From NCBI GenBank assembly GCA_964497435.1, contig CAZCCD010000004.1:93922-117921 (forward strand): 24,000 bases of DNA. The letters run 5' to 3'. Origin of the DNA: Candidatus Woesearchaeota archaeon. Lineage in GTDB: Archaea > Nanobdellota > Nanobdellia > Pacearchaeales > GW2011-AR1. Below, piece by piece: positions 2-16,493 of the stretch. The translations under genes and the position numbers were made by a program. Below the pieces are notes generated by a model. The model made no database searches. It was given only the letters and a program-made list of their open reading frames with translations, and was not told where the DNA came from. Each line of letters starts with the position of its first letter. Position 1 is the first letter of the stretch.

Positions 2-3000
2 CATTACGTAAGGGTTACTTTTGAAAAGAATTTAACAAATGAAAATGATATAACAATTTATCCAAGAATTGTAAATGGAGCTCCGAGAATAGAGGTATAT
101 GAAAAAGATTTAAATGAAATTGTAGCTGAATTTAATGTCATAAATGATAGTCAATACAATAAAGTATTTTTGATCAATCTAATTGGAGAACAAGATGTTT
201 TTGATTTGCTTATTTTAAATGGAGATTTAGAATTTGATCATATAATTGATCCGACAAAAACAGCAGGGCCAAATATCTCTGTTTTTAATACTTATTTAAG
301 ACCAACATCATGTCAAGGAGAAGATGGTGATGTTGGAGATAATTTCACTGATGCTTGTGATGGAACATACCCCAGTTCATCATGTGGTGTTGGAGCAGAT
401 TTTGTTAGTTGTGATGACTCTGTAAATGAATCAATGACAGCAACAGCAGTAGCTGGAACTAGTTATGCTGGGGTAAAGTTAAACATCTCTAATTCTTCGA
501 TAACTAATTGTGCTAGTATAACTCAGGTAGTTGTTTGTTATGAATGGTGGATTACTGGAGGAACATCTCAAAATTGCAGAGTGACTGTTTCTAATGGAAC
601 CCATGAAAGCAATGCAAGCACTTTCTGTCCCGGCTCATCTTTTAACCCTGGAGTGAATTGTTCAACTGTAACCTCAAATTTAAGTTGGGGATGTGGAAAC
701 TTTTTTAATCCTACAAATACAGAATCTTATATCGAAAGCGAGTTCCAAAAAGGTTCTGGACTTGGATCGAGAACTGGGTGGTGGGATGTTCTTTATTATA
801 ATGTTACTTACACAACCTCTAATACTCTTCCAACACATGACACACCAAGCATAACTCCTTACCCTACCGCAACTACTGATAATAATCTTACAGCATCTAA
901 TGTTTCAACAAGCGATGTTGATGGAGATTTAGTAACTAACATATATAACTGGAAAGTAAATAGCACTCTTTTAACAATCCTTAACATGCCATTTGACACA
1001 AATATTTCAGTAACAACCCCAAATCTTGTTAAAGATTATTCTGGAAATGGAAACAACGGGACATTAAATTCAAGCAATGTTACATGGGTTAATAATGGCA
1101 GGGTTGGAGGAGCCTATAACTTTTCTAGATCTGTTGACTCACTTATAACAATTAATGATTCAGCTAGTTTAAGGCTTACACAGAATTTAACTGTTATGGC
1201 ATGGATAAATCTTTCAGATAATGTTACTGACTCTAACACAAATCATTATACCATCTTAGCTAAGAAGAATGGAGCAGGAGACGCTAATTATTGGTTTGCT
1301 CTAACTGGACAGGCAGGGAATCTTGGGAAACTTCATCTTTATATGACGGGCCCTGGATATAATTTTGGTAGTAAGAATAACTGGAATGAAAATCAGTGGT
1401 ATTTTGTTGCAGCTACTTATAATAATACCCATGTTGCTTTTTATGTCGACGGAGTTGTTGATAATATAGTTGCTGAAACAGTTGCAATAGGTGCATATAA
1501 TGCAGATGCATTAAATATTGGTGCATGGACACAAACACTGCATTGGTTTAATGGAACATTAGATGAGATCAAAGTTTTTAATAGGTCTTTATCAGCAAGT
1601 CAGATTTATCAGATTTATCTTGATACGAGAAATGGAACAAGTATGAATAGCAATATGACTAGTAGCGAGATAAGAGCAGGTGAAAATTGGACAGTAGAAG
1701 TGACTCCAAATGATGGAATTGGGGATGGGACTTTAAAATTAAATTGGACAGTCATAGTATCTGACAACATTCCAACTGTAACTTTATCAAACCCAAGCGA
1801 TGGAGCTAGTGGCGTTGACTTAACGAGTTTTATATGCAATACAACAGATGATATTAATCTTAAGAATGTAAGTCTATACGGAAATTGGACAGGAAGCTGG
1901 CATTTGAATCAAACAACAAACATTTCTGGGACAAGTAACAGCACTAATTTTACGAATATTGACCTACCTGATGGGACTTTTGTCTGGAATTGTCTTGTTT
2001 ATGATAATAGTTCTCAGTCAGCATTTGCCTCTTCTAATTTTACTGTTACAAACGATAGATGCGGATTAACTCAGGTTTCCTCAACTACAACATTGACAAA
2101 GAGTCAGTGTGAACATTATAATATAACTTCTAATAATGTTGTTTTTTCGTGTGGAGGATATACTGTTTTTGGACATACAGGACTTATAGGAAATGTATCA
2201 ATAACAGCCAAGGATAGAAATAATATAACTGTAAAAGACTGTATTTTGACAAATTGGAGTCATGGAATTTCTTTTTCAAATGTGACAAATTCTTTGATAT
2301 TTAATTCAACGTTATTAAATTTAAGCGATATTAGCGAAGGAAATGTCTATTCTTTAGGAATAAACCTTACTAGTTCTAATTATAACAACATCACTAATGT
2401 TAATATAACAAATATGACGACTCAATCAACATCTGGCTCTGGATGTTATGACGGTAGTTTAAGAGGAGTTAGCCTATCTTCTTCGGAAAATGTTACAATA
2501 AATAATTTAAAAGAAAACTTTATTAATGGAACTTTTAGATTAGATGGAGATACAGAAAATCCAGGATGTCAACTTGTAATTACTACTACTGGTGATGGAG
2601 TTATTATTTCATCATCTTCTCACAACTTTACTATATTTAATTCTACATTTAATACTATAGGTGCTGAAGCAATAGATGGAGATTCTTCAGGAAGATTAAA
2701 TATTACTTTAAATACAATAACTAATGCAGCCACTGGAATAGAGACAACCAATGAAAATACAGGAGGATATGCTGTTGGAAATAATATAAGTAAAAGTAGT
2801 GTTGGTATTGACATCTCTTCTTCTGGTAGCTGGACTGTTCAATATAACAATGTGAATTTTGTAAGTAGTAAAGGAATTTCTGTTTCAGGCATAGGAGGAT
2901 ATGTTGATCATAATGTTGTTAATCATATCAATTCAAGTAGTAGTAGTGTTGGAGGAATAACAATGGGCATATTAAACACAAACTCATTTGACAACAATAC

Positions 3001-5179
3001 TGTTTACAATGCTTCTTTTTCAACTCCTTCAAGCTCTGCTATTTATGTGACAAGAAATTTTAATGGCACATACATAAATGTAACAAATGCAACAAATGGA
3101 TTTTACTTTTCTGGCTCTAATGCAGATAATTCTAACTTAACAAATTCATCTATATCTGAAACATTGTGGAATTCTACTTATATAAGTGGGGCTTCAAATG
3201 TTAATTACTACAATGTGACCCATGATACATCGAAAATAAACATTTCTTCTGGGAGTTTTTTTAATTATTATTATTTACAAGTTAATGTTACTGATCATAA
3301 TTATGCAGCCTTAAATGTAGCCAGTGTTAATGTCACTAACAATACTGGGAGTGGATCTCCGGAAATCCAAACAACGACAGGCTCTAATGGCTTAACACAA
3401 CAACTTGTTATATTGACATTTAATCAAAGTTCATCAGGTGTTGCAAATCACACTCCCCACAACATTTCAGCATCCAAGACAGGATACTCTTTAAACTGGA
3501 CAAGAGAAGCTTTAGACAGGTCAAGATTAATATGGCTTCTTATTCATACTCCTGAAATTCTTTCTTATATACCTACAACAGATACATTTTCAATTGCAGA
3601 ACCAAGTAATCAGACATTTAGCATAATATATACTAATCAGACTCCTGTCCATATAAGATGGTTTGTAAATAATACTGAGAATACAACAATAACAAACACA
3701 AGTCAGTTTATATGGTATGGAAATTATACACAGCAAGGAACCTATCAAATAAAAGTAAATATATCTAATGCCGATGGTTTTGATGAGCAAATATGGACAA
3801 TGACAGTAAATGATACTAATCCTGCTCCGACTCACACAACTCCTTTATTTGATGTATTTCCCCCTGCGAATTCTCAAAATTTTTCCTGTTTAAATCAATC
3901 AACGAGTGATGCTAACGGAGATAATGTAACTAATATTTACAATTGGCTTGTTAATGGAAATTCAACAACTGTCTTGAATATGCCATTTGACACAAACATT
4001 TCAGTAACAACCCCAAATCTTGTTAAAGATTATTCTGGAAATGGAAATAATGGAACTTTGAATAGCAGCTCTGCTTTAATTTGGACATCAAATGGAAGGG
4101 TTGGAGGAGCTTATAATTTCTCTGGAAATTCTGGTTCAATAATTAGAATTAATGATTCTTCTAGTCTAAGTTCAACTCAAAACTTAACTGTCATGGCTTG
4201 GATAAAACCAGCATTGAATTTTACAGGAGCAGGCCTTGTTCGTACTATTTTAGTCAAGAGAAACTCAACAACTTTTTCTTACAGGTTTAATATAGATGAT
4301 ACTGTATTTGAAGATGGTAAGTTAGATTTTCTTATTATGGGAGTTTCTCATAAATCTGTTAGAAATAACTGGACAAAAGATACTTGGTATCATGTTTCAG
4401 CAACTTATAATAAATCACATGTAGTTTTGTATGTTGATGGAGTTGTTGATAATACTGTTGCTGAGACAAGAAGCATTTCTTATGATGGAAACCCTCTTGA
4501 TATTGGAGGACAAAATAACAATTCTTTGTTATTTAACGGAACAATAGATGATGTAAGGATTTACAACAGGTCTTTGTCTAGCAGCCAAATTTATCAGATT
4601 TATTTAGATACTCAAGATGGTTTAAGCAATAAAAGTGTTATTGTTGGTGATGAAACACTAGTCAACGAGAATTGGACATGTCAAGTTACTCCAAACGATG
4701 CTTATCAAGATGGAACAACTCTTTCAAATTCAACAAATATAACAAGTGCTGCAATTGCTATGTCTCTTTCATCTAAATTAGCTCAACAAATAAATTGGAC
4801 TCTTACAGTCCTTCCTACTGTTAATCAATCAGCAGAAGGGAATAATGGGACAGACATCACAGAATATTACATAAATGTTACAGCAACAGGAGGAACAGCC
4901 GATGTTTACATTAGGGCTAATGATAATCTAAAAACTTCTGGAGGAGATATTCTTGGACTTGGGAATGAAACCTTTAATTATAATTTAACTAATTCAACTG
5001 TCCCTGGAGAAAGTAGGATACAATTAACCACTAATTTTTCAGACAATAAAATAGGCAGCAATATTGAAAGCGGAATTATCTATCTTAAATTTTATTTAAA
5101 TGCGCCTGCTGCACAGCCTGCCGGAATTTATAATAACACACTGGAATTTAAAGGAGTCGCAAGTGGTGAATCTCCTTAA
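2..5179 (+). CDS. Giant secreted/cell-surface protein, 5'-partial. Contains two LamG/ConA-like lectin modules, an Ig-like domain, a parallel beta-helix region and a C-terminal ~143-aa domain shared with the next gene.
   Basis: The frame is open from base 2. The track start at 170 is a TTG with no signal peptide after it, and the first in-frame ATG is near 433, so the CDS probably continues upstream of the window. The LamG-like signature occurs twice: NMPFDTNISVTTPNLVKDYSGNGNNGTLNSS..GRVGGAYNFS..LTVMAWI..ATYN..HV.YVDGV..FNGT.D...NRSLS.SQIYQIYLD. Residues ~630-1000 (nt ~2057-3170) show short N/I/V/T/S-rich periodic turns typical of right-handed beta-helix (PbH1/NosD-like) proteins. N-x-S/T sequons are very dense. 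Confidence 0.85.
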   Translation, partial: HYVRVTFEKNLTNENDITIYPRIVNGAPRIEVYEKDLNEIVAEFNVINDSQYNKVFLINLIGEQDVFDLLILNGDLEFDHIIDPTKTAGPNISVFNTYLRPTSCQGEDGDVGDNFTDACDGTYPSSSCGVGADFVSCDDSVNESMTATAVAGTSYAGVKLNISNSSITNCASITQVVVCYEWWITGGTSQNCRVTVSNGTHESNASTFCPGSSFNPGVNCSTVTSNLSWGCGNFFNPTNTESYIESEFQKGSGLGSRTGWWDVLYYNVTYTTSNTLPTHDTPSITPYPTATTDNNLTASNVSTSDVDGDLVTNIYNWKVNSTLLTILNMPFDTNISVTTPNLVKDYSGNGNNGTLNSSNVTWVNNGRVGGAYNFSRSVDSLITINDSASLRLTQNLTVMAWINLSDNVTDSNTNHYTILAKKNGAGDANYWFALTGQAGNLGKLHLYMTGPGYNFGSKNNWNENQWYFVAATYNNTHVAFYVDGVVDNIVAETVAIGAYNADALNIGAWTQTLHWFNGTLDEIKVFNRSLSASQIYQIYLDTRNGTSMNSNMTSSEIRAGENWTVEVTPNDGIGDGTLKLNWTVIVSDNIPTVTLSNPSDGASGVDLTSFICNTTDDINLKNVSLYGNWTGSWHLNQTTNISGTSNSTNFTNIDLPDGTFVWNCLVYDNSSQSAFASSNFTVTNDRCGLTQVSSTTTLTKSQCEHYNITSNNVVFSCGGYTVFGHTGLIGNVSITAKDRNNITVKDCILTNWSHGISFSNVTNSLIFNSTLLNLSDISEGNVYSLGINLTSSNYNNITNVNITNMTTQSTSGSGCYDGSLRGVSLSSSENVTINNLKENFINGTFRLDGDTENPGCQLVITTTGDGVIISSSSHNFTIFNSTFNTIGAEAIDGDSSGRLNITLNTITNAATGIETTNENTGGYAVGNNISKSSVGIDISSSGSWTVQYNNVNFVSSKGISVSGIGGYVDHNVVNHINSSSSSVGGITMGILNTNSFDNNTVYNASFSTPSSSAIYVTRNFNGTYINVTNATNGFYFSGSNADNSNLTNSSISETLWNSTYISGASNVNYYNVTHDTSKINISSGSFFNYYYLQVNVTDHNYAALNVASVNVTNNTGSGSPEIQTTTGSNGLTQQLVILTFNQSSSGVANHTPHNISASKTGYSLNWTREALDRSRLIWLLIHTPEILSYIPTTDTFSIAEPSNQTFSIIYTNQTPVHIRWFVNNTENTTITNTSQFIWYGNYTQQGTYQIKVNISNADGFDEQIWTMTVNDTNPAPTHTTPLFDVFPPANSQNFSCLNQSTSDANGDNVTNIYNWLVNGNSTTVLNMPFDTNISVTTPNLVKDYSGNGNNGTLNSSSALIWTSNGRVGGAYNFSGNSGSIIRINDSSSLSSTQNLTVMAWIKPALNFTGAGLVRTILVKRNSTTFSYRFNIDDTVFEDGKLDFLIMGVSHKSVRNNWTKDTWYHVSATYNKSHVVLYVDGVVDNTVAETRSISYDGNPLDIGGQNNNSLLFNGTIDDVRIYNRSLSSSQIYQIYLDTQDGLSNKSVIVGDETLVNENWTCQVTPNDAYQDGTTLSNSTNITSAAIAMSLSSKLAQQINWTLTVLPTVNQSAEGNNGTDITEYYINVTATGGTADVYIRANDNLKTSGGDILGLGNETFNYNLTNSTVPGESRIQLTTNFSDNKIGSNIESGIIYLKFYLNAPAAQPAGIYNNTLEFKGVASGESP
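830..1732 (+). repeat. Intragenic module A (~300 aa): DxDGD strand, LamG domain, W.V.VTPNDG strand.
   Basis: Runs from PTHDTP.. to ..WTVEVTPNDGIGDGT and aligns end to end with module B. Its core at nt 986-1053 matches 3980-4047 with a single mismatch. Confidence 0.8.
3827..4717 (+). repeat. Intragenic module B (~297 aa), a paralog of module A.
   Basis: Runs from PTHTTP.. to ..WTCQVTPNDAYQDGT with the same motif order as module A. The shared stretch atgccatttgacacaaa(t/c)atttcagtaacaaccccaaatcttgttaaagattattctggaaatggaaa is almost identical at nucleotide level. Confidence 0.8.
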
Positions 5180-5249
5180 TTTTTAATGTAATAATATGGA
5201 AATATTTAAAAGAAAAGATGTATTTTAGATTGCATATAAAGAGGTTAAA

Positions 5250-5846
5250 ATGAGGATTGAAAATATAATAGTTTTAATTTTTGGTTCGGTTTTTTTATTT
5301 TCAATTATAATGTTTATGACTCAAGGAATAAGGATGACAGGCTATGCAACAACAAGCACAACAGTTTCAAATGTGACCATATCAACTTTTTTTGCTATTG
5401 CCATGTCAACAAATCTTTCAGATGGAATAAGATTTGGAAATTTAACAACTTTACCTGTAACAAATCAAAATGCAACCCACAATTTTGATGGAACAAACAC
5501 GACAATGTCTGGAAATGGGACATCTATGTGGGTTAATGTTTCCACAGACAGTAATACAGCTGTTGATTTTTGTTTGAAGGCAGACGACAACTTAAGAACT
5601 AGTGGTGGAGATGTTTTAACTTTGGCAAATGAATCATATCATAATTCTAGTGTTACTAATTTAACACAACCAGATATGGGAAGCGAGATTGCATTTACGA
5701 GTTCTTATGTTAAGGCAGGTCCTAATGTTGCCGCAGGAAGTCAGCATTATTACAGATTCTGGTTGGATGTTCCAGCAGGACAGGCTTCAGGAACATATAA
5801 TAATACAATTAGTGTTAAAGGAGTGTCAACAGGAGGTTCATGTTAA
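5250..5846 (+). CDS. Small secreted, probably N-glycosylated protein; paralog of the C-terminal domain of the giant protein.
   Basis: An SD-like aaagaggt lies 5 nt before the ATG. It has an N-terminal hydrophobic signal/anchor (IIVLIFGSVFLFSIIMFM). Residues 49-198 align with giant-protein residues encoded at 4748-5176: AIAMS, ADDNLRTSGGDVL vs ANDNLKTSGGDIL, FWLDVPAGQASGTYNNTISVKGV vs FYLNAPAAQPAGIYNNTLEFKGV. I counted 11 N-x-S/T sequons by hand. Confidence 0.85.
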   Translation: MRIENIIVLIFGSVFLFSIIMFMTQGIRMTGYATTSTTVSNVTISTFFAIAMSTNLSDGIRFGNLTTLPVTNQNATHNFDGTNTTMSGNGTSMWVNVSTDSNTAVDFCLKADDNLRTSGGDVLTLANESYHNSSVTNLTQPDMGSEIAFTSSYVKAGPNVAAGSQHYYRFWLDVPAGQASGTYNNTISVKGVSTGGSC

Positions 5847-5906
5847 ACCTTTTTTGAAAAGGTTTCCAAAACCAAACCTTAAAATAAATTAAAACCAATA
5901 CAAAAA

Positions 5907-6584
5907 ATGAAAAATAAACTCTGCTTTGTTTTGTATTTAATCATTATTTTAAATGTTTATTTTGTTTCAGCAGAATCTGGTGTTGGGATTAGGTCTTATC
6001 AAGAATCAATACTTCTTAGAGAAAATCAAGAAGGATGCGTGTCTGTTGGAGCTTATAATCCTTTCAATGAAGATACAAAAGTCATAGTTGGCATTTCTGA
6101 TGAACTGAAAGAAGTCCTTATTTTACAAGAGGCGGAATCAAAATTACTTCCTGCTTTTACCTCAAGTAATGATGCAATACCTTTAAAGTTTTGTTTTAAG
6201 GTCCCTAAATTCTATCAAAGAGATTGTTCTATAGGGAGTTTTATTTGTGAACTTACTTGTAATGAACCTCAAAAAGAATACTCTGGAGAAATTTCTCTTA
6301 CAACTCAACCTTCAAGTACAGATATTGGGGGGGCTGGTGGCTCTGCAACAAAATTATCAGTTTCTACAAAATTAAATGTCAGGGTTGAATGTATTCCTCA
6401 TCCCAGGGAGTATACTGCTGTTTATGTTTCTCTGGCTTTGATTTCAGTGTTTGTTGTAGGATTTGTATTATTCAAGAGATATAGAAAGCCTAAAGTTCAG
6501 AGGGACAGGGAGAAGTTAATGAAACTTAAGGCAGAGATAGCTAAGGAAGAGAGTAAAGGTAAAGGCAAATCTAAAAAAAGATAG
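5907..6584 (+). CDS. Membrane-anchored surface protein: signal peptide, beta-rich ectodomain, C-terminal TM helix and K/R-rich tail.
   Basis: N-terminal signal LCFVLYLIIILNVYFVSA|ES. The ectodomain is Cys-containing and has a GGAGGS linker. C-terminal TM segment AVYVSLALISVFVVGFVLF is followed by KRYRKPKVQRDREK...KGKGKSKKR. Confidence 0.75.
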   Translation: MKNKLCFVLYLIIILNVYFVSAESGVGIRSYQESILLRENQEGCVSVGAYNPFNEDTKVIVGISDELKEVLILQEAESKLLPAFTSSNDAIPLKFCFKVPKFYQRDCSIGSFICELTCNEPQKEYSGEISLTTQPSSTDIGGAGGSATKLSVSTKLNVRVECIPHPREYTAVYVSLALISVFVVGFVLFKRYRKPKVQRDREKLMKLKAEIAKEESKGKGKSKKR

Positions 6585-6857
6585 TTATCTTTTTTAAAAA
6601 TTAAATTATTTAATATCTAATTCATGATAAATATTTTTTATATGATTGTACATTTTTAGACTCTGGAATATATTAGTGTTGGCATTTAATAATAGGTTGA
6701 AGTTAAATAAGATAACTAAAATTAACAAGAAGTCTGACTTGTTAATAATAATTTATAACGAGGGGTCATAATACTCTAAATTTGGGCAATTATATCAAAT
6801 TAAAGATTCATTTTATATAAACTAAAGAAATAAAAATATAGGATAATTATTCTTTTT

Positions 6858-8786
6858 ATGATTAGATTAAAAAGAGGTTGGTTATTATTATCTATATTTT
6901 TAACTATAGTGGCAATTTTCTTCAATATAAGATTTTTGGGATTTGCAATAAATGCAACCACTCCATCAAACGTCACTATTTCTGCAGGAAATTCTTTTCC
7001 TGTTATAGGGCCAATTAACAGCTCTTTATTTATTTGTGAGAGTCAGAGCATGTTTTATCAATTTAATGCTACAGATATTGACGGAGATGTTTTAACAGGA
7101 AGGATTTCTCCTCAAGATCCATTTTTTGTATTTTGGGTCTCTCAAGAAAGTCCTAATACTCATAATTTTGCAATAGTTTCCGGGACTCTAGACAAGGGAG
7201 ATGTCGGAGGAGTTAACAATGGCTTTCAGTTATACCAGGAAACTGTTTTTATTAGCGATAATTTTAATTCAAGCTGCTGTGAAGATTCTGAAAAGGTTAA
7301 TATAACTGTTGTGGAAAAGAACAATGTTCCTGTAGTTGAAGACATAGGAGTTAAAACAATCTATACACAAGGAGAGAATTCAACTTTGTATGAGGTTTGG
7401 AGTGTTAATGATACAGAGTTTAACCTTGGTTATGGCGGTTTGACTTATAACATATCTATTAAAAATTCTTCTGGCTCTGCAGTTAATTTATTTAATATAA
7501 GTTCTTTAGGAGTCATTAATTTTACAGCAAATACTTCTACGACTTTAGGAGTTTATAATGTAACTGTTTGTGTTAATGATACAGGACTTTCTAACCCTCA
7601 TCAAAATATAAGTTCTATATGTGGTAACTCTGGAAATTCTCAATCTGTTTGCGACTCTTTCAGTTTAACAATAACAGACGAAAATAGGCCACCAAATATT
7701 ACTTCTTATTATCCTACTAGTTTGGAATTTAGTAGCTTAGGAACTTCGTCACTTTTTTTCAATATAACAAAGCATGATCCTGATGGAACAATTCCTGATG
7801 CTTATTGGTATCTGGATGGTGTATTTAGGGAGCTTGATTCAGGAAGTTTTGTTGACACATTTAGTTATACTTTTGGATGTGGTATTTCAGGAATTCATAA
7901 TATTAGTGTTGAGATTACAGATGGTTTGCTTAATGATTCATTACAATGGAATGTAACTATTAATGAAGTTTCATGTGCCGCTCCTCCACCAGTTGTTGGT
8001 GGGGGCGAGGGTGGAGGAGGTGGATTTGCCGGGTTTAAGGAATTCAGTGTCTATCCAGAATTTATAACAACAACTGTTTTACATCAACAAGGAAAGAGCT
8101 TTGATATTAATGTTACAAATACAGGAACAGCAATCATAGATATTTCAATGGCAATAGAGAATTTAACAGATAAGGCAATTTTAAGTGAAGAAAATTTCAA
8201 TCTAATACCAGGCAAATCAAAAATTGTTAGACTTTATCTTTATGCCCTAAGTGAGACAACTCCAGGAGTTTACTTTGGGAGAATTATGGTGAGCGACGGT
8301 GCATCAACAAAATATGTAAAGATAGTTTTAGAAGTTAAAGAGAGAGAGCCTTTGTTTGATTTGAAAGTAATAGTTCCTCCTGAATACAAAGTAGTTAATC
8401 CTGGAGAAAATATAGGAGTCATAGTTAAAATGTTAAATATTGGTTTATATGGGACAGCTGTTGACGTGGATCTTGTTCTTTATATTGTTGACCTTGAAAA
8501 AGTAATACTTTATGAGTCTTCTAAAGAAGTCATTGCTGTTGAAACTAATTTATCAATTGAAAGAACTTTATATGTTCCTATAGATGCAACAAGTGGGACT
8601 TATCTTGTTTTAGGAGAGGCTAAATATACAAATATAAGTATTAGCACTTATGACACTTTTGTTGTTGTGCAAAAGAAATTCTTGAAGATAAGTTATATAT
8701 TGTTGATATTGTTGGTTTTAATTTTGATATTATTTATAATATTTATTTTATATAAAAGAAGGAAGAAAAAGAAGGAATGGGAATAA
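6858..8786 (+). CDS. Membrane-anchored surface protein with Ig/cadherin-like repeats, a Gly-rich hinge, two CARDB/NEW3-like beta-sandwich domains, a C-terminal TM helix and a basic tail.
   Basis: N-terminal signal/anchor WLLLSIFLTIVAIFF. DxDGD-type motifs (NATDIDGDVLTG, KHDPDGTIPDAYWYLDG). Hinge PPPVVGGGEGGGGGFAGF. Two repeats of the pattern ..V.V.N.G......v......pG.s..v....vp....GtY.g.i.. typical of archaeal surface beta-sandwich domains. C-terminus ISYILLILLVLILILFIIFILYKRRKKKKEWE. Confidence 0.8.
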   Translation: MIRLKRGWLLLSIFLTIVAIFFNIRFLGFAINATTPSNVTISAGNSFPVIGPINSSLFICESQSMFYQFNATDIDGDVLTGRISPQDPFFVFWVSQESPNTHNFAIVSGTLDKGDVGGVNNGFQLYQETVFISDNFNSSCCEDSEKVNITVVEKNNVPVVEDIGVKTIYTQGENSTLYEVWSVNDTEFNLGYGGLTYNISIKNSSGSAVNLFNISSLGVINFTANTSTTLGVYNVTVCVNDTGLSNPHQNISSICGNSGNSQSVCDSFSLTITDENRPPNITSYYPTSLEFSSLGTSSLFFNITKHDPDGTIPDAYWYLDGVFRELDSGSFVDTFSYTFGCGISGIHNISVEITDGLLNDSLQWNVTINEVSCAAPPPVVGGGEGGGGGFAGFKEFSVYPEFITTTVLHQQGKSFDINVTNTGTAIIDISMAIENLTDKAILSEENFNLIPGKSKIVRLYLYALSETTPGVYFGRIMVSDGASTKYVKIVLEVKEREPLFDLKVIVPPEYKVVNPGENIGVIVKMLNIGLYGTAVDVDLVLYIVDLEKVILYESSKEVIAVETNLSIERTLYVPIDATSGTYLVLGEAKYTNISISTYDTFVVVQKKFLKISYILLILLVLILILFIIFILYKRRKKKKEWE

Positions 8787-9743: not shown

Positions 9744-10065
9744 CCTTAATGGAAAGAAATTCAAATTTGATGCAGAGATTTGTGAGGGTTTAAAGGCTGG
9801 TAGAGGATTGATGTTTAAATCTAAAAATACAAACGCCTTATTGTTTGAATTTGATAATCAATCTAAAACCCCTTTAACCTCTTTATTTGTGTTTTTCCCT
9901 TTTGTTGCTGTATGGCTTGATGGAGAAAGGATTGTTGACATAAGGCTGATAAAGCCGTTCAAGCCTCTAATAAGAACAAAAAAGAGATTTAACAGGATTT
10001 TAGAAATTCCAGTAAATCACAGATATAAGCGTGAGATTAAATTTCTCTGCTCGAAACCCCACTAG
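9718..10065 (+). CDS. DUF192-like (COG1430) protein.
   Basis: GRGLMF...ALLFEF...VAVWLDGERIVDI...ILEIP matches the DUF192 pattern GLM..GMLF..fwM..D..f.d..g.i...vLE. It overlaps the upstream gene by 26 nt, suggesting translational coupling. Its stop codon lies inside the first copy of a 45-bp tandem duplication. Confidence 0.6.
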   Translation: MKTKKVYFNLNGKKFKFDAEICEGLKAGRGLMFKSKNTNALLFEFDNQSKTPLTSLFVFFPFVAVWLDGERIVDIRLIKPFKPLIRTKKRFNRILEIPVNHRYKREIKFLCSKPH

Positions 10066-10131
10066 CTTATGGATTATTTCGTGAAGTTTCTCTGCTCGAA
10101 ACCCCACTAGCTTATGGATTATTTCGTGAAG
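10042..10131. repeat. Perfect 2 x 45-bp tandem duplication.
   Basis: The unit tttctctgctcgaaaccccactagcttatggattatttcgtgaag occurs at 10042-10086 and again at 10087-10131. It is followed by tttctc (10132-10137), which is the start of a third copy and provides junction microhomology. Confidence 0.95.
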
Positions 10132-10216
10132 TTTCTCGTCGGATAACAAAAGATTTAAAAAGATGTTCCGATTGATTTTATCATTACACTATGAAAGGAG
10201 GTATAGAAAATTAAAT

Positions 10217-10345
10217 ATGGGAAAAGTTCTTGTTAGAAATGTGGTTAAGAGAAAACACGGCTATCTTTATTATGTAGATGGAAAAGGAAATGTTTGTGAG
10301 GCAAAGATGGCTAGAGGTGGAAGAAAGAAAAAGAAAAAGAGATAA
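10217..10345 (+). CDS. Small basic hypothetical protein (42 aa from the internal ATG; the track ORF begins at 10163).
   Basis: GGAGGT at 10197-10202 precedes the ATG at 10217. Product: MGKVLVRNVVKRKHGYLYYVDGKGNVCEAKMARGGRKKKKKR. The 10163 start would add a non-conserved-looking leader that contains the SD itself. Confidence 0.4.
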   Translation: MGKVLVRNVVKRKHGYLYYVDGKGNVCEAKMARGGRKKKKKR

Positions 10346-12149: not shown

Positions 12150-15100
12150 CTATCCAAGATAACTGCTTTCTGCAGGAACAGCTGCTTTGACTGCTTTTAG
12201 ATAATTGTCTTCGACTTTTTTGTATACTTCTATTGTTGATTTTGTGATGCTTGGTTTTATTTTTTTCAATGCTTCTTCAAAGTGAGAAAGCTTTACTTGC
12301 TTTGCTTCTTTTGATTCTCTCAAGGCGAGCATTCCTGCCTCTCTCACTACAGCCTCTAAATCAGCTCCGGTATATCCTTCTGTTTTCTTTGCGAGTTCTT
12401 TTAATGAGATGTTTTTTGCCAGAGGCATTTTTTTTGTATGAATCTCAAGTATTTTTAATCTTCCTTCTTCTGTTGGCGCAGTGACTAAAAGTATTTTGTC
12501 AAACCTCCCTGGTCTTAATAATCCAGGATCTAGCAAGTCTGGCCTATTAGTTGCACCTATTACTAAAACATCTTTTAGATCTTCTAAGCCATCCATTTCA
12601 GCAAGCATTTGATTTAAGACTCTTTCTGTAACTTTTGTTCCTGCTTCTAGGCCTCTTCTTCCTGCAAGTGCATCTATTTCATCAAAAAATACTATACAAG
12701 GAGCAACCTGTCTTGCTCTTTCAAATACTTTCCTCATTCCTTCCTCACTTTCACCAACCCATTTACTTAGCAATTCAGGACCCTTAATCTGGATAAAATT
12801 AGCCTCTGATTCTTTTGCGACAGCCTTGGCCAAGAGTGTTTTTCCTGTTCCAGGAGGGCCATAAAGAAGTATTCCTCTAGATGGTCGTATCCCCATTCTG
12901 TCAAAACCCTCTGGAAATTTAAGAGGCCATTCAACAGCTTCTTTCAATTCTTGTTTTACTTTTTCTAGACCACCAACATCTTCCCAACCAATATTTGGGG
13001 TTTCAACTAAAACCTCCCTCATTGCACTTGGCCTTACTACTTTTAAAGCATCCATAAAATCATTATGTTTGATAATTAATTTTTCCAGCATTTCAGGAGG
13101 AATCTGCTCTTCTTTGTCTAATTTCATTTCAGGAAGCAGTTTTCTTAGAACATTCATTGCAGATTCTTTTGCGAGAGCTTCAAGATCGGCTCCAACAAAA
13201 CCATGTGTTAATGAAGCTATTTCATATAACACTGCTGGGATTGACTCTTTTCTTACTATATCAAAATATTCTTTAGATAACACGTTTGAATCCTGTAGGT
13301 CATTTAAAATCTCAAAAACTTGTTTCTCACTTTCAGACAAATTTCTTTTTAAAAAAATGCTTCTAGGATCATTTTGTCCTCTTTTAGCGAGAGAATCCTT
13401 TAATACACATATCTCTTTTATCAACTCAATTAGAAGTTGTTTATTATTCTTAAATTCATCACTTCTTTTCCTAACTACTAATATGTCTTTCCTTATTTTA
13501 TCTATTTGACTTTCAGAATCTTTTACATCTTTGGTAATTGTTTGTATACGCTTTTCTAAAGTAAGAATTTGATCGTTCAAATCATCTATATTTTCTCTTA
13601 GTTTTTTTAATTCACTTTTTTTTAGTCTAAACAGCTCTAATACTTCTGAGAGGTGAAATTTTCTTTCATATTCTCTTTCTAACGTTCTAAATTCATTCTC
13701 TAATCTTTTTAACAACAGACTTTTTCCTTCAGAATCAGAATTTAAATCCTTTAATTCTTTACTTTTATCTTTTTTCTCTTTAGAAATCTTCTCTATTTTT
13801 TCTGCTAACTTTGATATCTTAATATTTGAATTTTCTTCAAAAGAAGATAATTCATTTAAGAAAACTTTTTTAGAGATATTAATATCCCAAAAATCAAGAG
13901 GCATTCCTCTTGTATGAATTTGCAAAATTTGTAACCTTCCATTTTTATCCGGGACTCCTACTTCAATCTCTCTATCAAATCTCCCAGGCCTCCTTAAAGC
14001 AGGGTCAAGTGCATTTACTCTATTTGTTGCCCCAATTACAATTACTTTTCCTCGAGATTTTAGGCCATCCATCATAGTTAATATCTGGGAGACGACTCTT
14101 CTTTCGACTTCTCCAGAAACATCTTCACGTTTTGGTGCAATGGCATCAATCTCATCTATGAAAACTATTGCTGGTGCTGTTTTCTCAGCCTCTTCAAAAA
14201 CATCTCTAACTCTCTTTTCACTCTCTCCATAGAACTTAGAATTATGCATTAAAAAATAAGGAGAAGCAGTAAAGCTGTCTTTATCAACGGTAAAATCATA
14301 CAATTCCATTTTGCCGAGAGGAGTTAAATTATCTACTCTCTCCCATGCAATATCATTTCTAAGCAAAGTGTTAAACTCTTTTTTCACAGCATCATTTACA
14401 ATGTTGTGTTCGACCGCCAAATCATAAAGAACTTTTAATGAATGTTTTGTAGCCTTATCAGTTTTATAAATATAATAATCTTTATTTCTATAATTTTTAT
14501 AAGGAATTCTTTTTATCTCTTCTATTAATAAGGAAGGGTGAGGTATATTCTCATACTCTTTCACTCTTATAACTTTTTCTATTTCTTTCAAAGCAGCTAA
14601 TTTATGTTTGCTTACTGCACCAATTTGCAAAAATTTAACTCTTCCTTCATTACCCCTAACAACTAACTTATACATTAATCCTTTTGGTGTATGATGTTCT
14701 GCTAATTTAGTACTTATACCTAATTTTAATAGCATCAATGACTGTAATTGGGATAAAAACTCCTTTTTAACGCTATAAAGATAAGGTGTTGGATAGATCA
14801 TATTCTTTACTTTTATTTTCATAACTGTTCCATCCCCATCAAAATATCCTCTAATAAAAGACTCAATTTCATTTTTTGGAAGGGTGAAGAAATAACTAGG
14901 AATATGTTCCTTATTTTCACTCGTAAACTTTAGTAGTCTTAGATATTCTACTAAAAGTTTTGAATAAACTATAACCCCAAACATCTTCCCCTTATTTTTT
15001 TCCTTAAAATTATCAATATTGAAAACCCTCTTAACGAGAAACTTAAAACGTTCTATTAATTCAATATTATTGTTATAAAAACCAATCGAGTCATCTTTTC

Positions 15101-16493
15101 CAGAGATATTCCCATCAGAAACTATTAAACCTAACAATTCTAAAAGCTCTGAAGATGTTTTTTTGGGAAGCTTGATAAAATTACTTCTTGAAAGGTTTAT
15201 ACTTTTAATAGCGAAATTACCATCTTTCTCTGTTAAGCTGAATTTTTGATGCAGTTCACTTAACGGGACATTAAAACTAGATTCCTCTAAATCTATTTTA
15301 TTTAACCTGGCAACAAAATCTCCTTTATTTAGGTTTCTCACAGCCTCCCAAACTAACTCTCCGTTTCTATAAACCAAAAACGGCTGATTTTCAGAAGCAA
15401 TAATTTCGTTTCCGTCGCTTAATTCTAATTTAAAAGACTCTGCCTCTAATTTCGTAACATGTGTGATGTTGGCTTTCTCTATTTTGCCGTCCTTAAATGA
15501 ATATGTGCTGATTGGCTTATCAAGTTTTTTTAGAATATAATCTCTAAATTTTTCATCTTTTCCTTCTTGTAGATAAATCTGTTTAGCCTTTATATATCCA
15601 TCAGGATTTGTTAAGACTTGTGTTTCTCCAGAAACACACATTACTTCTGGCCCGTTTAACAAAATAAAATTAGCATCTGTTTCGTTTGCGACTGCCTTGG
15701 CCAAGAGTGTTTTTCCTGTTCCAGGAGGACCATGGAGTAAAACTCCTTTTGGAGGCTCTACACTTAACCTTTCAAATATTTCAGGATGTTTCATAGGTAT
15801 CTCAACCATTTCTCTTATCTTTTTGACCTCATCATCTAATCCACCAATGTCTTCATAAGTTATTTCAGGGATTTTTTCTTCAGAGATTTCGACTGCTTTT
15901 GGATTTAATGTTACTTCTGTGTTTTCTGTGACAATACATGGCTGGCTTGGAGAGATATTCACTACGAGAAATTTTATTTGTGTTATTCCTCCTCCAAGAT
16001 TTCCAAATCCCATATTGTTTAACATTTCTCCAAACAATCCGCTGAATTCATCATCCATTGACTCAGAGAAGAGATCTCGTCTTCTTTGGACTCCGCCAAG
16101 GACAACTATATCTCCTTTAACTATTGCCCTTCCTAAAAGCCCTCTTCTTAAACTATTAGAGTCAGCCTGAATCATTATGCCTTTTTGAGCAGGAGCAATA
16201 ATTACTTTTTTAGCTTCTTTAATTTCAACTTTAGAAACAGAGACAACATCTCCTATACCTGTCCTTGCATTTCTCCTTAGTATTCCATCTATTCTTATTA
16301 TTCCTTCTCCAACATCTGCAGGATAGGCCCTATCAGCTATTGCAATTGTTTCTTTATTTCCTTTAATCAAGATTACATCTCCTCTTTTTATACCTAGTTC
16401 TCTCATGATTTCAGAATCTATTCTTGCTATTCCTTTGTATGCATCATCTTGCAATGCTTCAACAACCTTTAACTGAACTTTTTTTTCTGTCAT
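12150..16493 (-). CDS. cdc48: Cdc48/VCP-like AAA+ ATPase (N-D1-D2) interrupted by an intein and carrying a coiled-coil insertion.
   Basis: N-domain present ([28 protein letters not shown]). D1 has Walker A GPPGTGKT (aa 255-262) and Walker [11 protein letters not shown]2 has [37 protein letters not shown]. The 1447-aa length is explained by a 466-aa intein plus a ~220-aa insertion. Confidence 0.95.
13230..13895 (-). other. ~220-aa K/E-rich coiled-coil insertion in the Cdc48 D1 alpha-helical lid subdomain.
   Basis: Canonical Cdc48 reads HTR.MPL(~10 aa)[11 protein letters not shown]. Here HTRGMPL (aa 860-866) and [13 protein letters not shown] (aa 1091-1103) are separated by heptad-like sequence: [23 protein letters not shown]...[42 protein letters not shown]... 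Confidence 0.8.
14241..15638 (-). mobile_element. Full-length intein with a LAGLIDADG homing-endonuclease domain, in Cdc48 D1.
   Basis: The extein junction NGPEVM|C...HN|SKFYGESE restores the conserved AAA motif GPE.MSK.YGESE. Block A is CVSGETQVL and blocks F/G are [19 protein letters not shown] followed by +1 Ser. The two LAGLIDADG motifs are [12 protein letters not shown] and [12 protein letters not shown]. Length is 1398 nt (466 aa). Confidence 0.9.

What the first reader, a model, noticed from the sequence alone, without database searches (positions are those of the whole stretch)
2..8786. Four-gene co-directional surface locus with the architecture of a cell-surface complex
All four consecutive + strand genes encode exported proteins. 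They are a 5'-truncated giant lectin/beta-helix protein, its small domain paralog, a 225-aa protein and a 642-aa protein. The last two both have a signal peptide, beta-sandwich ectodomains, a single C-terminal TM helix and a poly-K/R tail. This composition mirrors the Csc (WxL/DUF916-DUF3324) clusters of Gram-positive bacteria: large ligand-binding protein, small paralog of its anchoring domain, and membrane-anchored beta-sandwich proteins. Two signal-anchored proteins also share a post-signal motif: ATTSTTVSNVTIS in the 198-aa protein and ATTPSNVTIS in the 642-aa protein. The giant protein has SNSTNITS just before AIAMS. This suggests a common processing or glycosylation site. In a putative episymbiotic small-genome archaeon, such a locus is a prime candidate for host attachment.
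Basis: inference. Interest (0 to 1): 0.72.

Follow-up and report, generated by a model that had tools for sequence, protein, structure and literature searches.

The report
DPANN strand-linked surface adhesin cassette
Four neighbouring genes of a tiny, probably host-dependent archaeon form a cassette conserved in its relatives. It most likely builds a sugar-coated surface stalk or fibre, with a huge variable adhesin at one end and a membrane anchor at the other, joined by swapped beta-strands; it resembles bacterial pili but belongs to no described family.

Summary
Window 2..8786 carries four co-directional genes:
- a 5'-truncated giant protein with two LamG modules;
- a 198-aa paralogue of its last ~155 residues (42% identity, E 2e-26);
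- a 225-aa protein and a 642-aa protein, each with an N-terminal signal segment and a C-terminal TM helix.

The order large protein, ~195 aa, ~200 aa TM protein, 400-640 aa TM protein recurs in 8 of 8 DPANN loci inspected, several with unrelated flanks.

The Csc/WxL comparison fits the architecture but not membership. There are no WxL, DUF916 or DUF3324 matches and no dual WxL motif.

The AlphaFold model of the 198-aa protein (pLDDT 84) weakly but consistently matches donor-strand pilins: Csu, TLP-1, archaeal bundling pilus, Saf, Fim, Pap.

The shared post-signal motif S-x-[VI]-[TS]-[IV] is near-invariant in 120 pilin homologues. It is present in all 36 anchor orthologues and in three diverged anchors. 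In both AlphaFold models it is the unplaced segment.

I read it as an N-terminal donor strand. The chain would run membrane anchor (donor only), then pilin(s), then the acceptor domain of the giant adhesin. This mechanism is inferred, not shown (confidence ~0.45). The 225-aa protein's role is unknown. I rate it a new variant of a known kind.

The parts
2..5179 (+). Giant surface protein, 5'-truncated (1725 aa in the window; about 550 aa are missing by analogy with the L004 orthologue). It is the variable adhesin or 'cargo' component.
   Evidence: Open frame. Two LamG modules. 113 N-x-S/T sequons against 52 expected from composition. Orthologous first genes vary widely: 518 aa, 711 aa, 1906 aa, 2368 aa (S8 + LamG), 2777 aa, >3098 aa and >8193 aa.
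782..1681 (+). LamG (concanavalin-A-like lectin) module 1, giant aa ~261-560.
   Evidence: Internal duplication, 48% identity, E 1e-94. Pfam Laminin_G_3 matches in 2 stretches.
3779..4669 (+). LamG module 2, giant aa ~1260-1556.
   Evidence: Best Pfam Laminin_G_3 stretch at aa 1379-1530. A sub-threshold NCBIfam TafC hit covers the LamG part only (96 bits against a cutoff of 410).
4715..5176 (+). C-terminal pilin-like domain of the giant (aa ~1572-1725), the proposed strand-acceptor domain.
   Evidence: 42% identity to the 198-aa protein, E 2e-26. The same domain ends the first-gene product in L004, L005, L006, L007 and L021. In the representative library it lies at the extreme C-terminus of long proteins. 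It lacks the two Cys conserved in the free pilin.
5250..5846 (+). 198-aa pilin-like subunit.
   Evidence: 168 homologues, all DPANN where named, no Pfam family. 597 representative clusters at E<=1e-3. AlphaFold pLDDT 84. Most of the 50 listed Foldseek PDB hits are donor-strand pilins or fibre subunits: CsuA/B E 4e-3, TLP-1b, ABP, SafA, CfaB, FimA, PapE, Caf1.
5250..5348 (+). Signal or hydrophobic segment of the 198-aa protein, ending in the conserved T-G-[YFH]-A (aa 30-33); predicted cleavage after A33.
   Evidence: Hydropathy. Column counts are T 114/120, G 118/120, A 98/120. Cleavage itself is inferred.
5349..5396 (+). N-terminal extension of the mature 198-aa protein (aa 34-49) with the core S40-N-V-T-I44; the proposed donor strand.
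   Evidence: S40 118/120, V42 120/120, I44 115/120. pLDDT averages 46 for aa 31-40 and 70 for aa 41-50, and the segment is not assigned to a strand in the monomer model.
5907..6584 (+). 225-aa accessory membrane protein: signal peptide, ~145-aa Cys-rich ectodomain, TM (aa 171-189), and a conserved cytoplasmic tail YRKPKxERDKEKLxKLK.
   Evidence: 25 homologues found, no Pfam family. Alignment A2. Present as the third gene in the seven loci whose third-gene product could be read or matched to an A2 family member. Zero sequons and 7 Cys. No detectable similarity to the pilin or anchor families. Fold not modelled.
6858..8786 (+). 642-aa membrane anchor or stalk protein.
   Evidence: 212 homologues. 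AlphaFold pLDDT 85 shows a string of beta-sandwich domains. Foldseek matches tandem-Ig proteins at E 1e-17 to 1e-12.
6858..6947 (+). Signal segment of the 642-aa protein, ending G28-F-A30.
   Evidence: Helix 2-26. Hydropathy. G-hydrophobic-[ASNG] is conserved in 36 of 36 orthologues.
6948..6986 (+). N-terminal extension of the 642-aa protein (aa 31-43, INATTPSNVTISA); proposed donor strand matching that of the pilin.
   Evidence: pLDDT is below 50 for aa 27-43. S-x-[VILF]-x-[VI] is present in 36 of 36 orthologues and in diverged anchors of L006 (SSISV), L007 (SRITI) and L021 (SSMTI).
6996..7979 (+). Distal Ig-like/cadherin-like domains of the anchor (aa ~47-374). Cys-rich; 19 of the protein's 25 sequons lie in this span.
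   Evidence: Weak Cadherin_4 hits in 6 family members.
7980..8033 (+). Gly-rich flexible linker (aa 375-392).
   Evidence: Sequence PPVVGGGEGGGGGFAG. pLDDT below 50.
8034..8672 (+). Two membrane-proximal beta-sandwich domains (aa ~393-605), sparsely glycosylated.
   Evidence: Only 4 sequons. Weak hits to Ig-like domain families (Cep192_D3/D6, MSP, HYDIN) in some family members, not mapped to this region.
8679..8783 (+). C-terminal TM helix and K/R tail (YKRRKKKKEWE).
   Evidence: Helix 608-641. Hydropathy peak at aa 613-631.

Best explanation
The four genes encode one Sec-exported, heavily N-glycosylated surface assembly held together by beta-strand complementation.

**Proposed chain (inferred).**
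- The 642-aa protein sits in the membrane by its C-terminal helix and projects a stalk of Ig-like domains. Its free N-terminal extension (…TTPSNVTIS…) inserts as a donor strand into the pilin-like fold of a 198-aa subunit.
- That subunit's own, nearly identical N-terminal extension inserts into the next 198-aa subunit, in one or many copies.
- The last extension fills the acceptor domain at the C-terminus of the giant LamG protein. The giant thus ends up at the distal tip as a variable, exchangeable adhesin.

**Polarity.** The anchor is donor only, the pilin is donor plus acceptor, and the giant is acceptor only. This combines the logic of TapA-nucleated TasA fibres with that of FimH-type two-domain tip adhesins.

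**The 225-aa protein.** It is unglycosylated, Cys-rich and membrane-tethered, with a conserved cytoplasmic tail. It is a core accessory factor. My guess is an assembly chaperone or platform.

**Likely function (inferred).** Attachment of the episymbiotic cell to a host or a surface.

**Shown.** Gene content, paralogy, cassette conservation, motif conservation, topology, sequon bias and fold resemblance.

**Inferred.** Cleavage, strand donation, polymerisation, polarity and function.
For: **1. Fold.** The AlphaFold model of the 198-aa protein (pLDDT 84) gives Foldseek PDB hits dominated by donor-strand subunits: CsuA/B 7zl4/6fqa (E 4e-3 to 6e-2, TM up to 0.53), TLP-1b 9ikk, Pyrobaculum bundling pilus 7ueg, SafA, CfaB, FimA, PapE, Caf1. 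The only recurrent Pfam hit is sub-threshold DUF4402, in 8 of 39 members.

**2. The extension in the pilin.** It is the best-conserved stretch of the family (S40 118/120, V42 120/120, I44 115/120). It is also the low-confidence, unassigned part of the monomer model.

**3. The same motif on the anchor.** It sits at the same distance from a G-aromatic-A site at the N-terminus of the 642-aa anchor. It is conserved in 36 of 36 orthologues and in diverged anchors whose first domains differ. It is likewise unplaced, with pLDDT below 50 for aa 27-43.

**4. Position of the pilin-like domain.** It is always either free-standing or the very last domain of a large protein.

**5. Cassette order.** It is conserved in 8 of 8 loci, while the first gene's passenger domains vary (LamG, S8 protease, NosD/beta-helix, WD40_RLD) and the flanks differ.

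**6. Sequon density.** Giant 113, pilin 11 and anchor 25, against 0 to 1.4 per 100 aa in cytoplasmic neighbours. This marks surface exposure. The 225-aa protein has none.

**7. Precedents.**
- TapA donates its N-terminus to TasA (PMC10151520).
- Tafi has a LamG tip protein and a TM anchor (PMC11821415, PMC12337348).
- A strand of WxLIP is predicted to insert into WxL (PMC10599100).
Against: - Structural matches are weak: best E 4e-3, TM 0.3-0.5, no hit at E<=1e-3.
- No multimer model could be run, so no groove or strand insertion has been seen.
- The giant's pre-domain segment still resembles the donor strand in some loci (L005 'NVTIT'). The 'acceptor only' status of the giant is therefore not secure.
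- The orthologous giant in L004 has an N-terminal cytoplasmic segment and a TM helix. It may be membrane-tethered itself, which would make a separate anchor less necessary.
- The N-terminal hydrophobic segments are long (19-25 residues) and could be uncleaved signal anchors.
- No signal peptidase, chaperone or usher homologue lies in the window.
- The motif contains a conserved N-x-T sequon in the pilin (113/120 and 119/120), so a glycosylation role is not excluded.
- The 225-aa protein's role is a guess.
Confidence: 0.45

Rival explanations
1. A Csc/WxL-like non-polymeric surface complex, essentially the first reader's view. The membrane-anchored Ig-like protein binds and stabilises the C-terminal anchoring domain of the giant and of its small paralogue in roughly 1:1 stoichiometry, possibly by inserting a strand. 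It displays the lectin protein at the surface, and no fibre forms.
For: [quoted passage not shown]
- Most loci carry a single pilin-size gene. Only one locus has extra ~195-200 aa genes.
- The anchor's own stalk of 5-6 Ig-like domains could provide the length without a polymer.
Against: - No WxL, DUF916 or DUF3324 sequence similarity and no dual WxL motif.
- From general knowledge, archaea lack the peptidoglycan that WxL domains bind.
- The free pilin keeps its own highly conserved N-terminal extension. This is unnecessary if it is only a bound ligand.
- The fold hits are to polymerising pilins.
Confidence: 0.27
2. A set of membrane-tethered envelope glycoproteins. The N-terminal hydrophobic segments are uncleaved signal anchors, so the pilin-like protein and the giant stay tethered by their N-termini. 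The conserved post-TM motif is a juxtamembrane glycosylation or packing element. The proteins together form a glycocalyx or S-layer-like coat rather than a strand-exchanged chain.
For: - The hydrophobic segments are long (helix 3-24 in the pilin, 2-26 in the anchor).
- The L004 giant has a cytoplasmic N-terminal segment before its TM helix.
- N41-x-T43 is conserved in the pilin, and sequon density is extreme.
Against: - The (-3, -1) small-residue pattern G-x-A is strictly conserved at the end of the hydrophobic segment in both families, which is typical of a cleavage site.
- In the anchors the sequon at the motif is often lost while the alternating S/hydrophobic/hydrophobic pattern is kept.
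- A 642-aa protein tethered at both ends would be unusual.
- It does not explain why the pilin-like domain is always the last domain of the large protein.
Confidence: 0.15
3. There is no functional unit. Four unrelated secreted or membrane proteins are adjacent only because these closely related small genomes are collinear.
For: In L004, L005 and L006 the surrounding housekeeping genes are also syntenic with the window: YchF-like GTPase, PF1765-like, MBL hydrolase, PhageMetallopep, DUF192, Kae1, L7Ae, S28e.
Against: - The cassette persists with unrelated flanks in L007, L021 and two JGI contigs.
- Genes 1 and 2 are paralogous in one domain.
- Genes 2 and 4 share a conserved N-terminal motif.
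- At least about two thirds of pilin homologues on contigs of 5 kb or more share a contig length with a listed anchor homologue (my tally, a proxy).
Confidence: 0.05

Closest known systems
Csc / WxL gene clusters of Firmicutes (CscA = WxLIP with DUF916-DUF3324 and a TM helix; CscB small WxL; CscC large WxL; CscD LPXTG)
   Same: - Four co-directional genes for surface proteins.
- A large protein with N-terminal lectin, beta-helix or Ig domains whose anchoring domain is always C-terminal.
- A small protein consisting only of that domain.
- An Ig-like protein with a C-terminal TM helix.
- A small separately anchored protein.
- A predicted strand insertion from the TM protein into the anchoring domain (PMC9772566, PMC10599100).
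   Different: - No sequence membership and no dual W-x-L motif.
- No peptidoglycan to bind and no sortase/LPXTG.
- The anchor here has 5-6 domains plus a free N-terminal extension that copies the small protein's own N-terminus.
- The hosts are DPANN archaea.
Haloarchaeal Tat-fimbriae (Tafi: TafA/TafE pilins, TafC LamG tip protein, TafF membrane anchor, TafD signal peptidase)
   Same: An archaeal strand-donation filament with a LamG-bearing minor subunit that also has a pilin-like domain, small pilins, and a TM-anchored component encoded together (PMC11821415, PMC12337348). The giant gives a sub-threshold TafC hit over the LamG region.
   Different: - Sec-type rather than Tat signals (no twin arginine).
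- No TafA, TafE or TafF model hit and no signal peptidase in the cluster.
- In TafC the pilin-like domain is N-terminal and LamG C-terminal; here the order is reversed.
- The proposed polarity is opposite: in the tafi model TafF accepts a strand, while here the anchor would donate one.
TapA-SipW-TasA fibres of Bacillus and TasA-like archaeal bundling pili (ABP)
   Same: - Chaperone/usher-free, Sec-exported beta-sandwich subunits polymerised by an N-terminal donor strand.
- A low-abundance, cell-associated protein (TapA) that donates its own N-terminus to start the fibre (PMC10151520).
- ABP 7ueg is among the Foldseek hits.
- A conserved small-aromatic-Ala cleavage motif precedes the strand. 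The TasA side of this comparison is from my own knowledge.
   Different: - No camelysin/TasA Pfam or NCBIfam hit and no dedicated signal peptidase gene nearby.
- TasA fibres have no giant tip adhesin.
- TapA is not an integral membrane stalk.
Chaperone-usher pili, especially archaic Csu pili and the FimH two-domain adhesin
   Same: - The best structural matches are CsuA/B 7zl4/6fqa, with Saf, Cfa, Fim, Pap and Caf1 subunits also listed.
- The tip adhesin is an N-terminal lectin part plus a C-terminal pilin domain.
- There is an N-terminal extension on the subunits.
   Different: - No periplasm, no usher and no detectable PapD-type chaperone in the cluster.
- The organism is a monoderm archaeon.
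- The fibre base would be a TM protein rather than an usher.
- Similarity is in fold only and weak.

Membership tests
Csc / WxL cluster | WxL domain (Pfam PF13731) with two W-x-L motifs at the C-terminus of both the large and the small protein | tested here: not met
   No WxL hit at E<=1 for the window proteins or for 39 family members. The only Trp-containing C-terminal motif is F-W-L-D-V-P in the pilin, and it is Y/F-L in the giants.
Csc / WxL cluster | WxLIP protein: DUF916 (PF06030) + DUF3324 (PF11797) + C-terminal TM helix | tested here: not met
   The TM helix is present, but there is no DUF916 or DUF3324 hit in the 642-aa or 225-aa proteins or their families.
Csc / WxL cluster | Cluster of at least one WxLIP and at least two WxL-domain proteins, one large and one small | tested here: inconclusive
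   An analogous arrangement is conserved in 8 of 8 loci, but it is built from unrelated sequence families.
Csc / WxL cluster | Non-covalent binding to peptidoglycan | not testable with these tools
   From general knowledge, DPANN archaea have no murein.
Tafi (Tat-fimbriae) | Twin-arginine (Tat) signal peptides on the pilins | tested here: not met
   The N-termini MRIENIIVLIF… and MIRLKRGWLLL… lack an S/T-R-R-x-F-L-K type motif. Homologues begin MK(R/G)E(N/D).
Tafi (Tat-fimbriae) | TafA/TafE/TafF/TafC family membership (NCBIfam) | tested here: not met
   Only TafC NF052521 hits the giant, at 96.5 bits against a cutoff of 410, and only over the LamG region. Nothing hits the other three proteins.
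Tafi (Tat-fimbriae) | Dedicated signal peptidase I (TafD) and a DUF5305 protein (TafG) in the cluster | tested here: not met
   No peptidase S26/S24 or DUF5305 in the window or in the gene tables of related loci.
TasA / camelysin / ABP bundling pili | Peptidase_M73/TasA-type sequence family | tested here: not met
   No Pfam or NCBIfam hit. A profile search of PDB sequences found nothing.
TasA / camelysin / ABP bundling pili | Beta-sandwich subunit completed by the N-terminal strand of the neighbour | tested here: inconclusive
   Fold hit to ABP 7ueg at E 0.013, TM 0.37-0.40. The N-terminal extension is conserved and unplaced in the monomer. No multimer model was possible.
Chaperone-usher pili | Pilin with an incomplete Ig fold plus an N-terminal extension | tested here: inconclusive
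   Most of the 50 listed Foldseek hits are chaperone-usher or other donor-strand subunits, but with E 4e-3 to 0.3. Sub-threshold DUF4402 hits in 8 of 39 members.
Chaperone-usher pili | Outer-membrane usher and periplasmic PapD-like chaperone genes | tested here: not met
   None in the window or related loci. Only faint hits to Ig-like domain families (Cep192, MSP, HYDIN) appear in a few members of the anchor family.
Type IV pili / archaella | Class III (prepilin) signal peptide and a PilB/PilC-type assembly ATPase and platform | tested here: not met
   The hydrophobic segment is followed, not preceded, by the conserved site. No ATPase or platform gene is nearby.

The most novel reading that the evidence does not exclude
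DPANN archaea of the Pacearchaeota, Woesearchaeota and Nanoarchaeota carry a previously undescribed class of Sec-dependent surface filament that needs neither chaperone nor usher. In it a membrane-embedded Ig-stalk protein carries the same donor strand as the pilin and so nucleates or terminates the fibre. A hypervariable giant adhesin of up to more than 8000 aa is plugged onto the distal end through a C-terminal acceptor domain. This would be a modular 'socket' letting tiny episymbionts swap host-binding tips. A second, related cassette type (L010, L011) suggests a whole family of such plug-in systems.
Probability: 0.35. Interest if true: 0.8.

Novelty: new variant of a known kind. Interest (0 to 1): 0.62.

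Why it matters
DPANN archaea of the Pacearchaeota and Woesearchaeota type are uncultured. How their cells hold on to hosts or surfaces is unknown. Three of the four proteins have no family in Pfam or NCBIfam. Yet the pilin-like domain alone has about 600 representative clusters at 50% identity.

A conserved cassette that couples a variable giant lectin or protease protein to a membrane stalk through a common plug-in domain gives three things:
- a concrete molecular candidate for the attachment organelle;
- a genomic marker, the first gene of the cassette, for finding host-specificity determinants;
- a further, independently evolved or very distant example of donor-strand assembly in archaea, with a polarity and anchor design not seen in Tafi, ABP, threads or TasA.

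It also gives the Csc/WxL clusters of Firmicutes a structural counterpart in another domain of life.

Tried and rejected
1. **Recovering the giant's true N-terminus.** The look-up of encoding contigs returned only 2.5-3.8 kb Logan contigs for the 198-aa protein and nothing for the 642-aa protein or its paralogue. The genome-contig scan did not contain the source genome. I inferred about 550 missing residues from the L004 orthologue.
3. **Sequence links of the pilin family to solved structures.** None by phmmer or profile search.
4. **The 225-aa family.** No link to the pilin family (hhalign), the anchor family, PDB sequences or Pfam, apart from TM-plus-basic-tail look-alikes such as Vpu.
5. 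**Beta-helix in the window's giant.** Not supported by Pfam or PDB sequence search.
6. **Co-variation between pilin and anchor motifs across genomes.** The pilin motif is too invariant to give signal.
7. **Type IV pilus, archaellum, archaeosortase (PGF-CTERM-like) and S-layer readings.** I considered and rejected these. Reasons: signal-peptide type, no assembly genes, and a long conserved cytoplasmic tail on the 225-aa protein.
8. **Bacterial sigma-70 promoter scanning.** Not used, because the organism is an archaeon.

Full report
**1. What is in the sequence**

The window is AT-rich, with a GC fraction of 0.27-0.37. Bases 2..8786 of the + strand carry four consecutive genes:
- a frame open from base 2 to the stop at 5179 (1725 codons, no start in the window);
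- 5250..5846 (198 aa);
- 5907..6584 (225 aa);
- 6858..8786 (642 aa).

Everything downstream is housekeeping: an MBL-fold hydrolase, a PhageMetallopep-family protein, DUF192, a TM2 protein, methionine aminopeptidase, a receiver domain, an intein-containing CDC48, VanZ, a TFIIS-like zinc-ribbon protein and Kae1. No signal peptidase, ATPase, usher or chaperone homologue is present.

- The giant has two Laminin_G_3 modules (E 1e-41), which are an internal duplication at 48% identity.
- The 198-aa protein is a paralogue of the giant's last ~155 residues: 42% identity, E 2e-26.
- Hydropathy finds one N-terminal hydrophobic segment in the 198-aa protein. It finds an N-terminal plus a C-terminal segment in the 225-aa and 642-aa proteins, each followed by a K/R-rich tail. 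It finds none in the giant fragment.
- The quoted motifs are present.

Three statements remain unverified:
- a beta-helix in this giant, although homologous giants carry NosD/Beta_helix domains;
- the fold of the 225-aa ectodomain;
- export of the giant, whose N-terminus lies upstream.

In the syntenic orthologue L004 (2777 aa), the window's first residue corresponds to residue ~550. That N-terminus is a ~75-residue cytoplasmic segment, a TM helix and a long S/T/E-rich spacer.

**2. It is a conserved cassette**

*Size of the families.*
- The 198-aa protein has 168 homologues, all from DPANN archaea where named, and no Pfam family.
- A profile search of 1.84 billion representatives finds 597 clusters at E<=1e-3 and 406 at E<=1e-10. 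The domain is either a free ~190-210 aa protein or the extreme C-terminal domain of long proteins such as 545, 1755 and 3174 aa.
- The 225-aa protein has 25 detectable homologues.
- The 642-aa protein has 212, including a paralogue (P0203) elsewhere on the same 117,921-bp source contig.

*Gene order.* In all eight loci whose gene order I could read, the order is: large variable protein, then ~195-aa pilin-like protein, then ~195-231-aa protein, then 401-642-aa protein.

| Locus | Gene sizes in order (aa) |
|---|---|
| window | >1725 → 198 → 225 → 642 |
| L004 | 2777 → 203 → 214 → 642 |
| L005 | 2368 (S8 + LamG) → 203 → 231 → 638 |
| JGI contig | 711 (LamG) → 195 → 203 → 195 → 498 |
| L006 | 518 → 198 → 195 → 451 |
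| L007 | >8193 → 192 → 207 → 462 |
| L021 | 1906 (NosD/beta-helix) → 200 → 219 → 401 |
| second JGI contig | >3098 (WD40_RLD, LamG, beta-helix) → 198 → 216 → 469 |

*Flanks.* L004, L005 and L006 share the window's housekeeping flanks, so collinearity alone could explain those three. L007, L021 and the JGI contigs have different flanks.

*Translations.* In the diverged loci the first protein still ends in the pilin-like domain. The third is a 225-family member: signal peptide, the motifs 'SAG[IV]G[IL]' and 'FCF[KN]VP', then a TM helix. The fourth keeps the Gly/Ser linker, two beta-sandwich domains, a TM helix and a basic tail, even where its N-terminal domains are of a different type.

So the first gene's 'passenger' is hypervariable. 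Its last domain and the three partner genes are the constant core.

**3. Structures**

*The 198-aa protein.* The AlphaFold model, built on a 39-sequence alignment, has mean pLDDT 84. It consists of an N-terminal helix (3-24), a low-confidence stretch (mean pLDDT 46 for residues 31-40 and 70 for 41-50), and a seven-stranded beta domain.

Foldseek against the PDB gives no strong match: best E 3.7e-3, TM 0.3-0.5. The list is nonetheless one-sided. It includes:
- archaic chaperone-usher Csu pilin (7zl4, 6fqa, 6fq0, 6fm5);
- the environmental donor-strand fibril TLP-1b (9ikk; PMC11494351);
- the Pyrobaculum bundling pilus (7ueg);
- SafA, CfaB, FimA/F/G/I, the FimH pilin domain, PapA/E/H and Caf1.

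The main exception is a beta-sandwich domain of GH123 enzymes.

The only recurrent Pfam signal in the family is sub-threshold DUF4402: 8 of 39 members, best E 0.013.

*The 642-aa protein.* The model has pLDDT 85. In order it shows:
- a signal helix (2-26);
- an unplaced segment (27-43, pLDDT below 50);
- beta-sandwich domains up to residue ~374;
- a Gly-rich linker (375-392, pLDDT below 50);
- two more sandwiches;
- a TM helix (608-641).

Foldseek finds only generic strings of Ig-like domains: HYDIN/ASH proteins, titin, contactins, complement MG domains, cadherin and an RTX adhesin extender, at E 1e-17 to 1e-12. It is a stalk, not an enzyme.

**4. The shared motif**

*In the pilin family.* Across 120 aligned pilin homologues the segment after the hydrophobic helix reads T30 G31 [YFH]32 A33 T34 … T38 x S40 N41 V42 T43 I44. 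The counts are T30 114, G31 118, A33 98, S40 118, V42 120 and I44 115 out of 120. G at -3 and A at -1 fit a type I signal peptidase site after A33. That reading is my inference.

*In the anchors.* All 36 anchor orthologues have G-[FLW]-[ASNG] at residues ~26-30, followed 4-6 residues later by S-[NEQS]-[VILF]-x-[VI]. The diverged anchors keep the same pattern: 'SSISV' in L006, 'SRITI' in L007 and 'SSMTI' after 'SGFA' in L021.

*Sequon or strand.* In the anchors the N-x-[ST] sequon at this spot is lost in 9 of 36. The alternating S/hydrophobic/hydrophobic residues are never lost. That is the signature of one face of a beta-strand rather than of a glycosylation site. In the pilin both faces are conserved, so glycosylation of N41 is not excluded.

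*The key observation.* In both AlphaFold monomers this conserved segment is the part that is not placed. A highly conserved N-terminal strand-like extension that does not belong to its own domain, attached to a pilin-like sandwich, is what donor-strand systems look like.

*In the giant.* The homologous position is polar in the window (LSNSTNITS) and in L004 (KQNSTVIANA), but is NVTIT in L005. Loss of donor capacity in the giant is therefore suggested, not proven.

**5. Glycosylation bias**

| Protein | N-x-S/T sequons observed | Expected from composition |
|---|---|---|
| giant | 113 | 52 |
| pilin (198 aa) | 11 | 4.5 |
| anchor (642 aa) | 25 | 7.8 |
| 225-aa protein | 0 | 1.1 |

Cytoplasmic proteins of the window have 0 to 1.4 sequons per 100 aa. 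Of the anchor's 25 sequons, 21 lie in residues 32-365 and only 4 in the membrane-proximal domains.

This fits a heavily N-glycosylated, outward-projecting assembly. It also sets the 225-aa protein apart. That protein has 7 Cys and a conserved cytoplasmic tail, YRKPKxERDKEKLxKLK. It looks like a non-displayed accessory factor.

**6. Most likely mechanism (inferred, confidence about 0.45)**

- After Sec export and cleavage, the anchor stays in the membrane and offers its N-terminal strand.
- That strand completes the sandwich of a pilin.
- The pilin's own equivalent strand completes the next pilin, in one or several copies.
- The final strand is accepted by the giant's C-terminal domain.

The giant, a lectin/protease/beta-helix adhesin, then sits at the distal end of a glycosylated stalk or fibre.

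Donor-only anchor, donor-plus-acceptor pilin and acceptor-only tip give a unique polarity. It is consistent with two precedents: TapA donating its N-terminus to start TasA fibres (PMC10151520), and FimH-type adhesins with an N-terminal lectin part and a C-terminal pilin domain.

Three points remain open:
- whether the 198-aa protein polymerises or is a single adaptor;
- whether the giant is additionally held by its own N-terminal TM helix;
- what the 225-aa protein does (my guess is a chaperone or platform).

**7. Comparison with known systems**

WxL clusters have a large protein whose WxL domain is always C-terminal, a small WxL-only protein, a TM-anchored Ig-like WxLIP and a small anchored protein (PMC9772566). 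AlphaFold2 predicts that a WxLIP strand inserts into WxL next to its N-terminus (PMC10599100). Membership fails, however. There are no WxL, DUF916 or DUF3324 matches, no dual WxL motif, and no peptidoglycan in archaea.

*Haloarchaeal Tafi.* It shares the LamG tip protein, pilins and TM anchor (PMC11821415, PMC12337348). It differs in using Tat signals, encoding its own signal peptidase, and having the reverse domain order and polarity. NCBIfam Taf models do not match apart from LamG.

*TasA/ABP and chaperone-usher pili.* They share the fold class and the principle only.

*Literature.* I found no description of this cassette in the searchable literature. That search is limited.

**8. Verdict**

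The locus is a DPANN-specific, widely conserved four-gene cassette. It most likely encodes a strand-complemented surface stalk or fibre with an exchangeable giant adhesin. I rate it a new variant of a known kind, with interest 0.62. The mechanism rests on weak fold similarity and conservation logic. It needs multimer modelling and experiment.

Noticed in passing
window 12150..16493 (- strand): The CDC48/VCP AAA ATPase gene (1447 aa) is interrupted by an intein with a LAGLIDADG homing endonuclease, in the first AAA domain just after the Walker A region (Pfam Intein_splicing 319-750, LAGLIDADG_3 543-621).
   Followed up: partly
window 5337..5348 and 6939..6947; also L004 1459..3300, L011 8567..20076: A short motif follows the N-terminal hydrophobic segment of many DPANN surface proteins: 'TG[YFH]A' or 'G-hydrophobic-A'. 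It occurs in the pilin, in both anchor types ('ITGESVTG…', 'ITGKA…') and in the L011 giant ('GFTGFA'). A similar 'FFTG[LF]T' lies ~30 residues after the TM helix of the orthologous giants in L004 and L005. This may be the recognition site of a dedicated processing enzyme.
   Followed up: partly
L011 8567..20076 and L010 8771..14097: There is a second, related cassette type.
- A giant that shares the window giant's first domain ('HYVRVTFEKNLTNENDITIYPRI', 64-73% identity) but has an N-terminal cytoplasmic coiled segment plus a TM helix, a different last ectodomain, a C-terminal TM helix and a cytoplasmic tail of repeated segments.
- A 307-350 aa paralogue of that last ectodomain.
- A small TM protein.
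- In L011, a 569-aa anchor of the same broad family as the 642-aa protein.
   Followed up: partly
outside the window, same source contig (protein P0203): A 679-aa paralogue of the 642-aa anchor (50% identity over about half its length) is encoded elsewhere on the same 117,921-bp contig. The genome therefore probably carries at least two such cassettes.
   Followed up: no
window 5907..6584: The 225-aa protein has no N-x-S/T sequon at all and 7 cysteines. Its three partners are saturated with sequons (113, 11 and 25). Its cytoplasmic tail YRKPKxERDKEKLxKLK is conserved across the family, which hints at an intracellular binding partner.
   Followed up: partly
window 5847..5863, 5180..5184, 6589..6595: Each of the first three genes is followed by a T-run. 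Right after the pilin stop there is a perfect hairpin, ACCTTTTTTGAAAAGGT. The 225-to-642 spacer is 273 bp here against ~90-100 bp in L004 and L005. This is possible internal termination or promoters giving unequal expression of the four genes.
   Followed up: no
window 20141..21430: The Kae1/TsaD homologue is 429 aa. The 264-position Pfam profile is stretched over residues 24-392, implying an insertion of roughly 100 residues.
   Followed up: no
window 19309..19638: Two fully overlapping ~102-aa ORFs lie on opposite strands. Only the + strand ORF (19330..19638) has a family match (TFIIS/RPB9-type zinc ribbon), so the - strand ORF is probably spurious.
   Followed up: partly
L016 (contig CAZUAA010000016.1, labelled Candidatus Saccharibacteria), 10001..10258: A contig binned as a CPR bacterium encodes the DPANN-type 'HYVRVTFEKN' giant-protein domain (43% identity over residues 1-88). 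It is either a misbinned DPANN contig or a transfer between the two groups of episymbionts.
   Followed up: no
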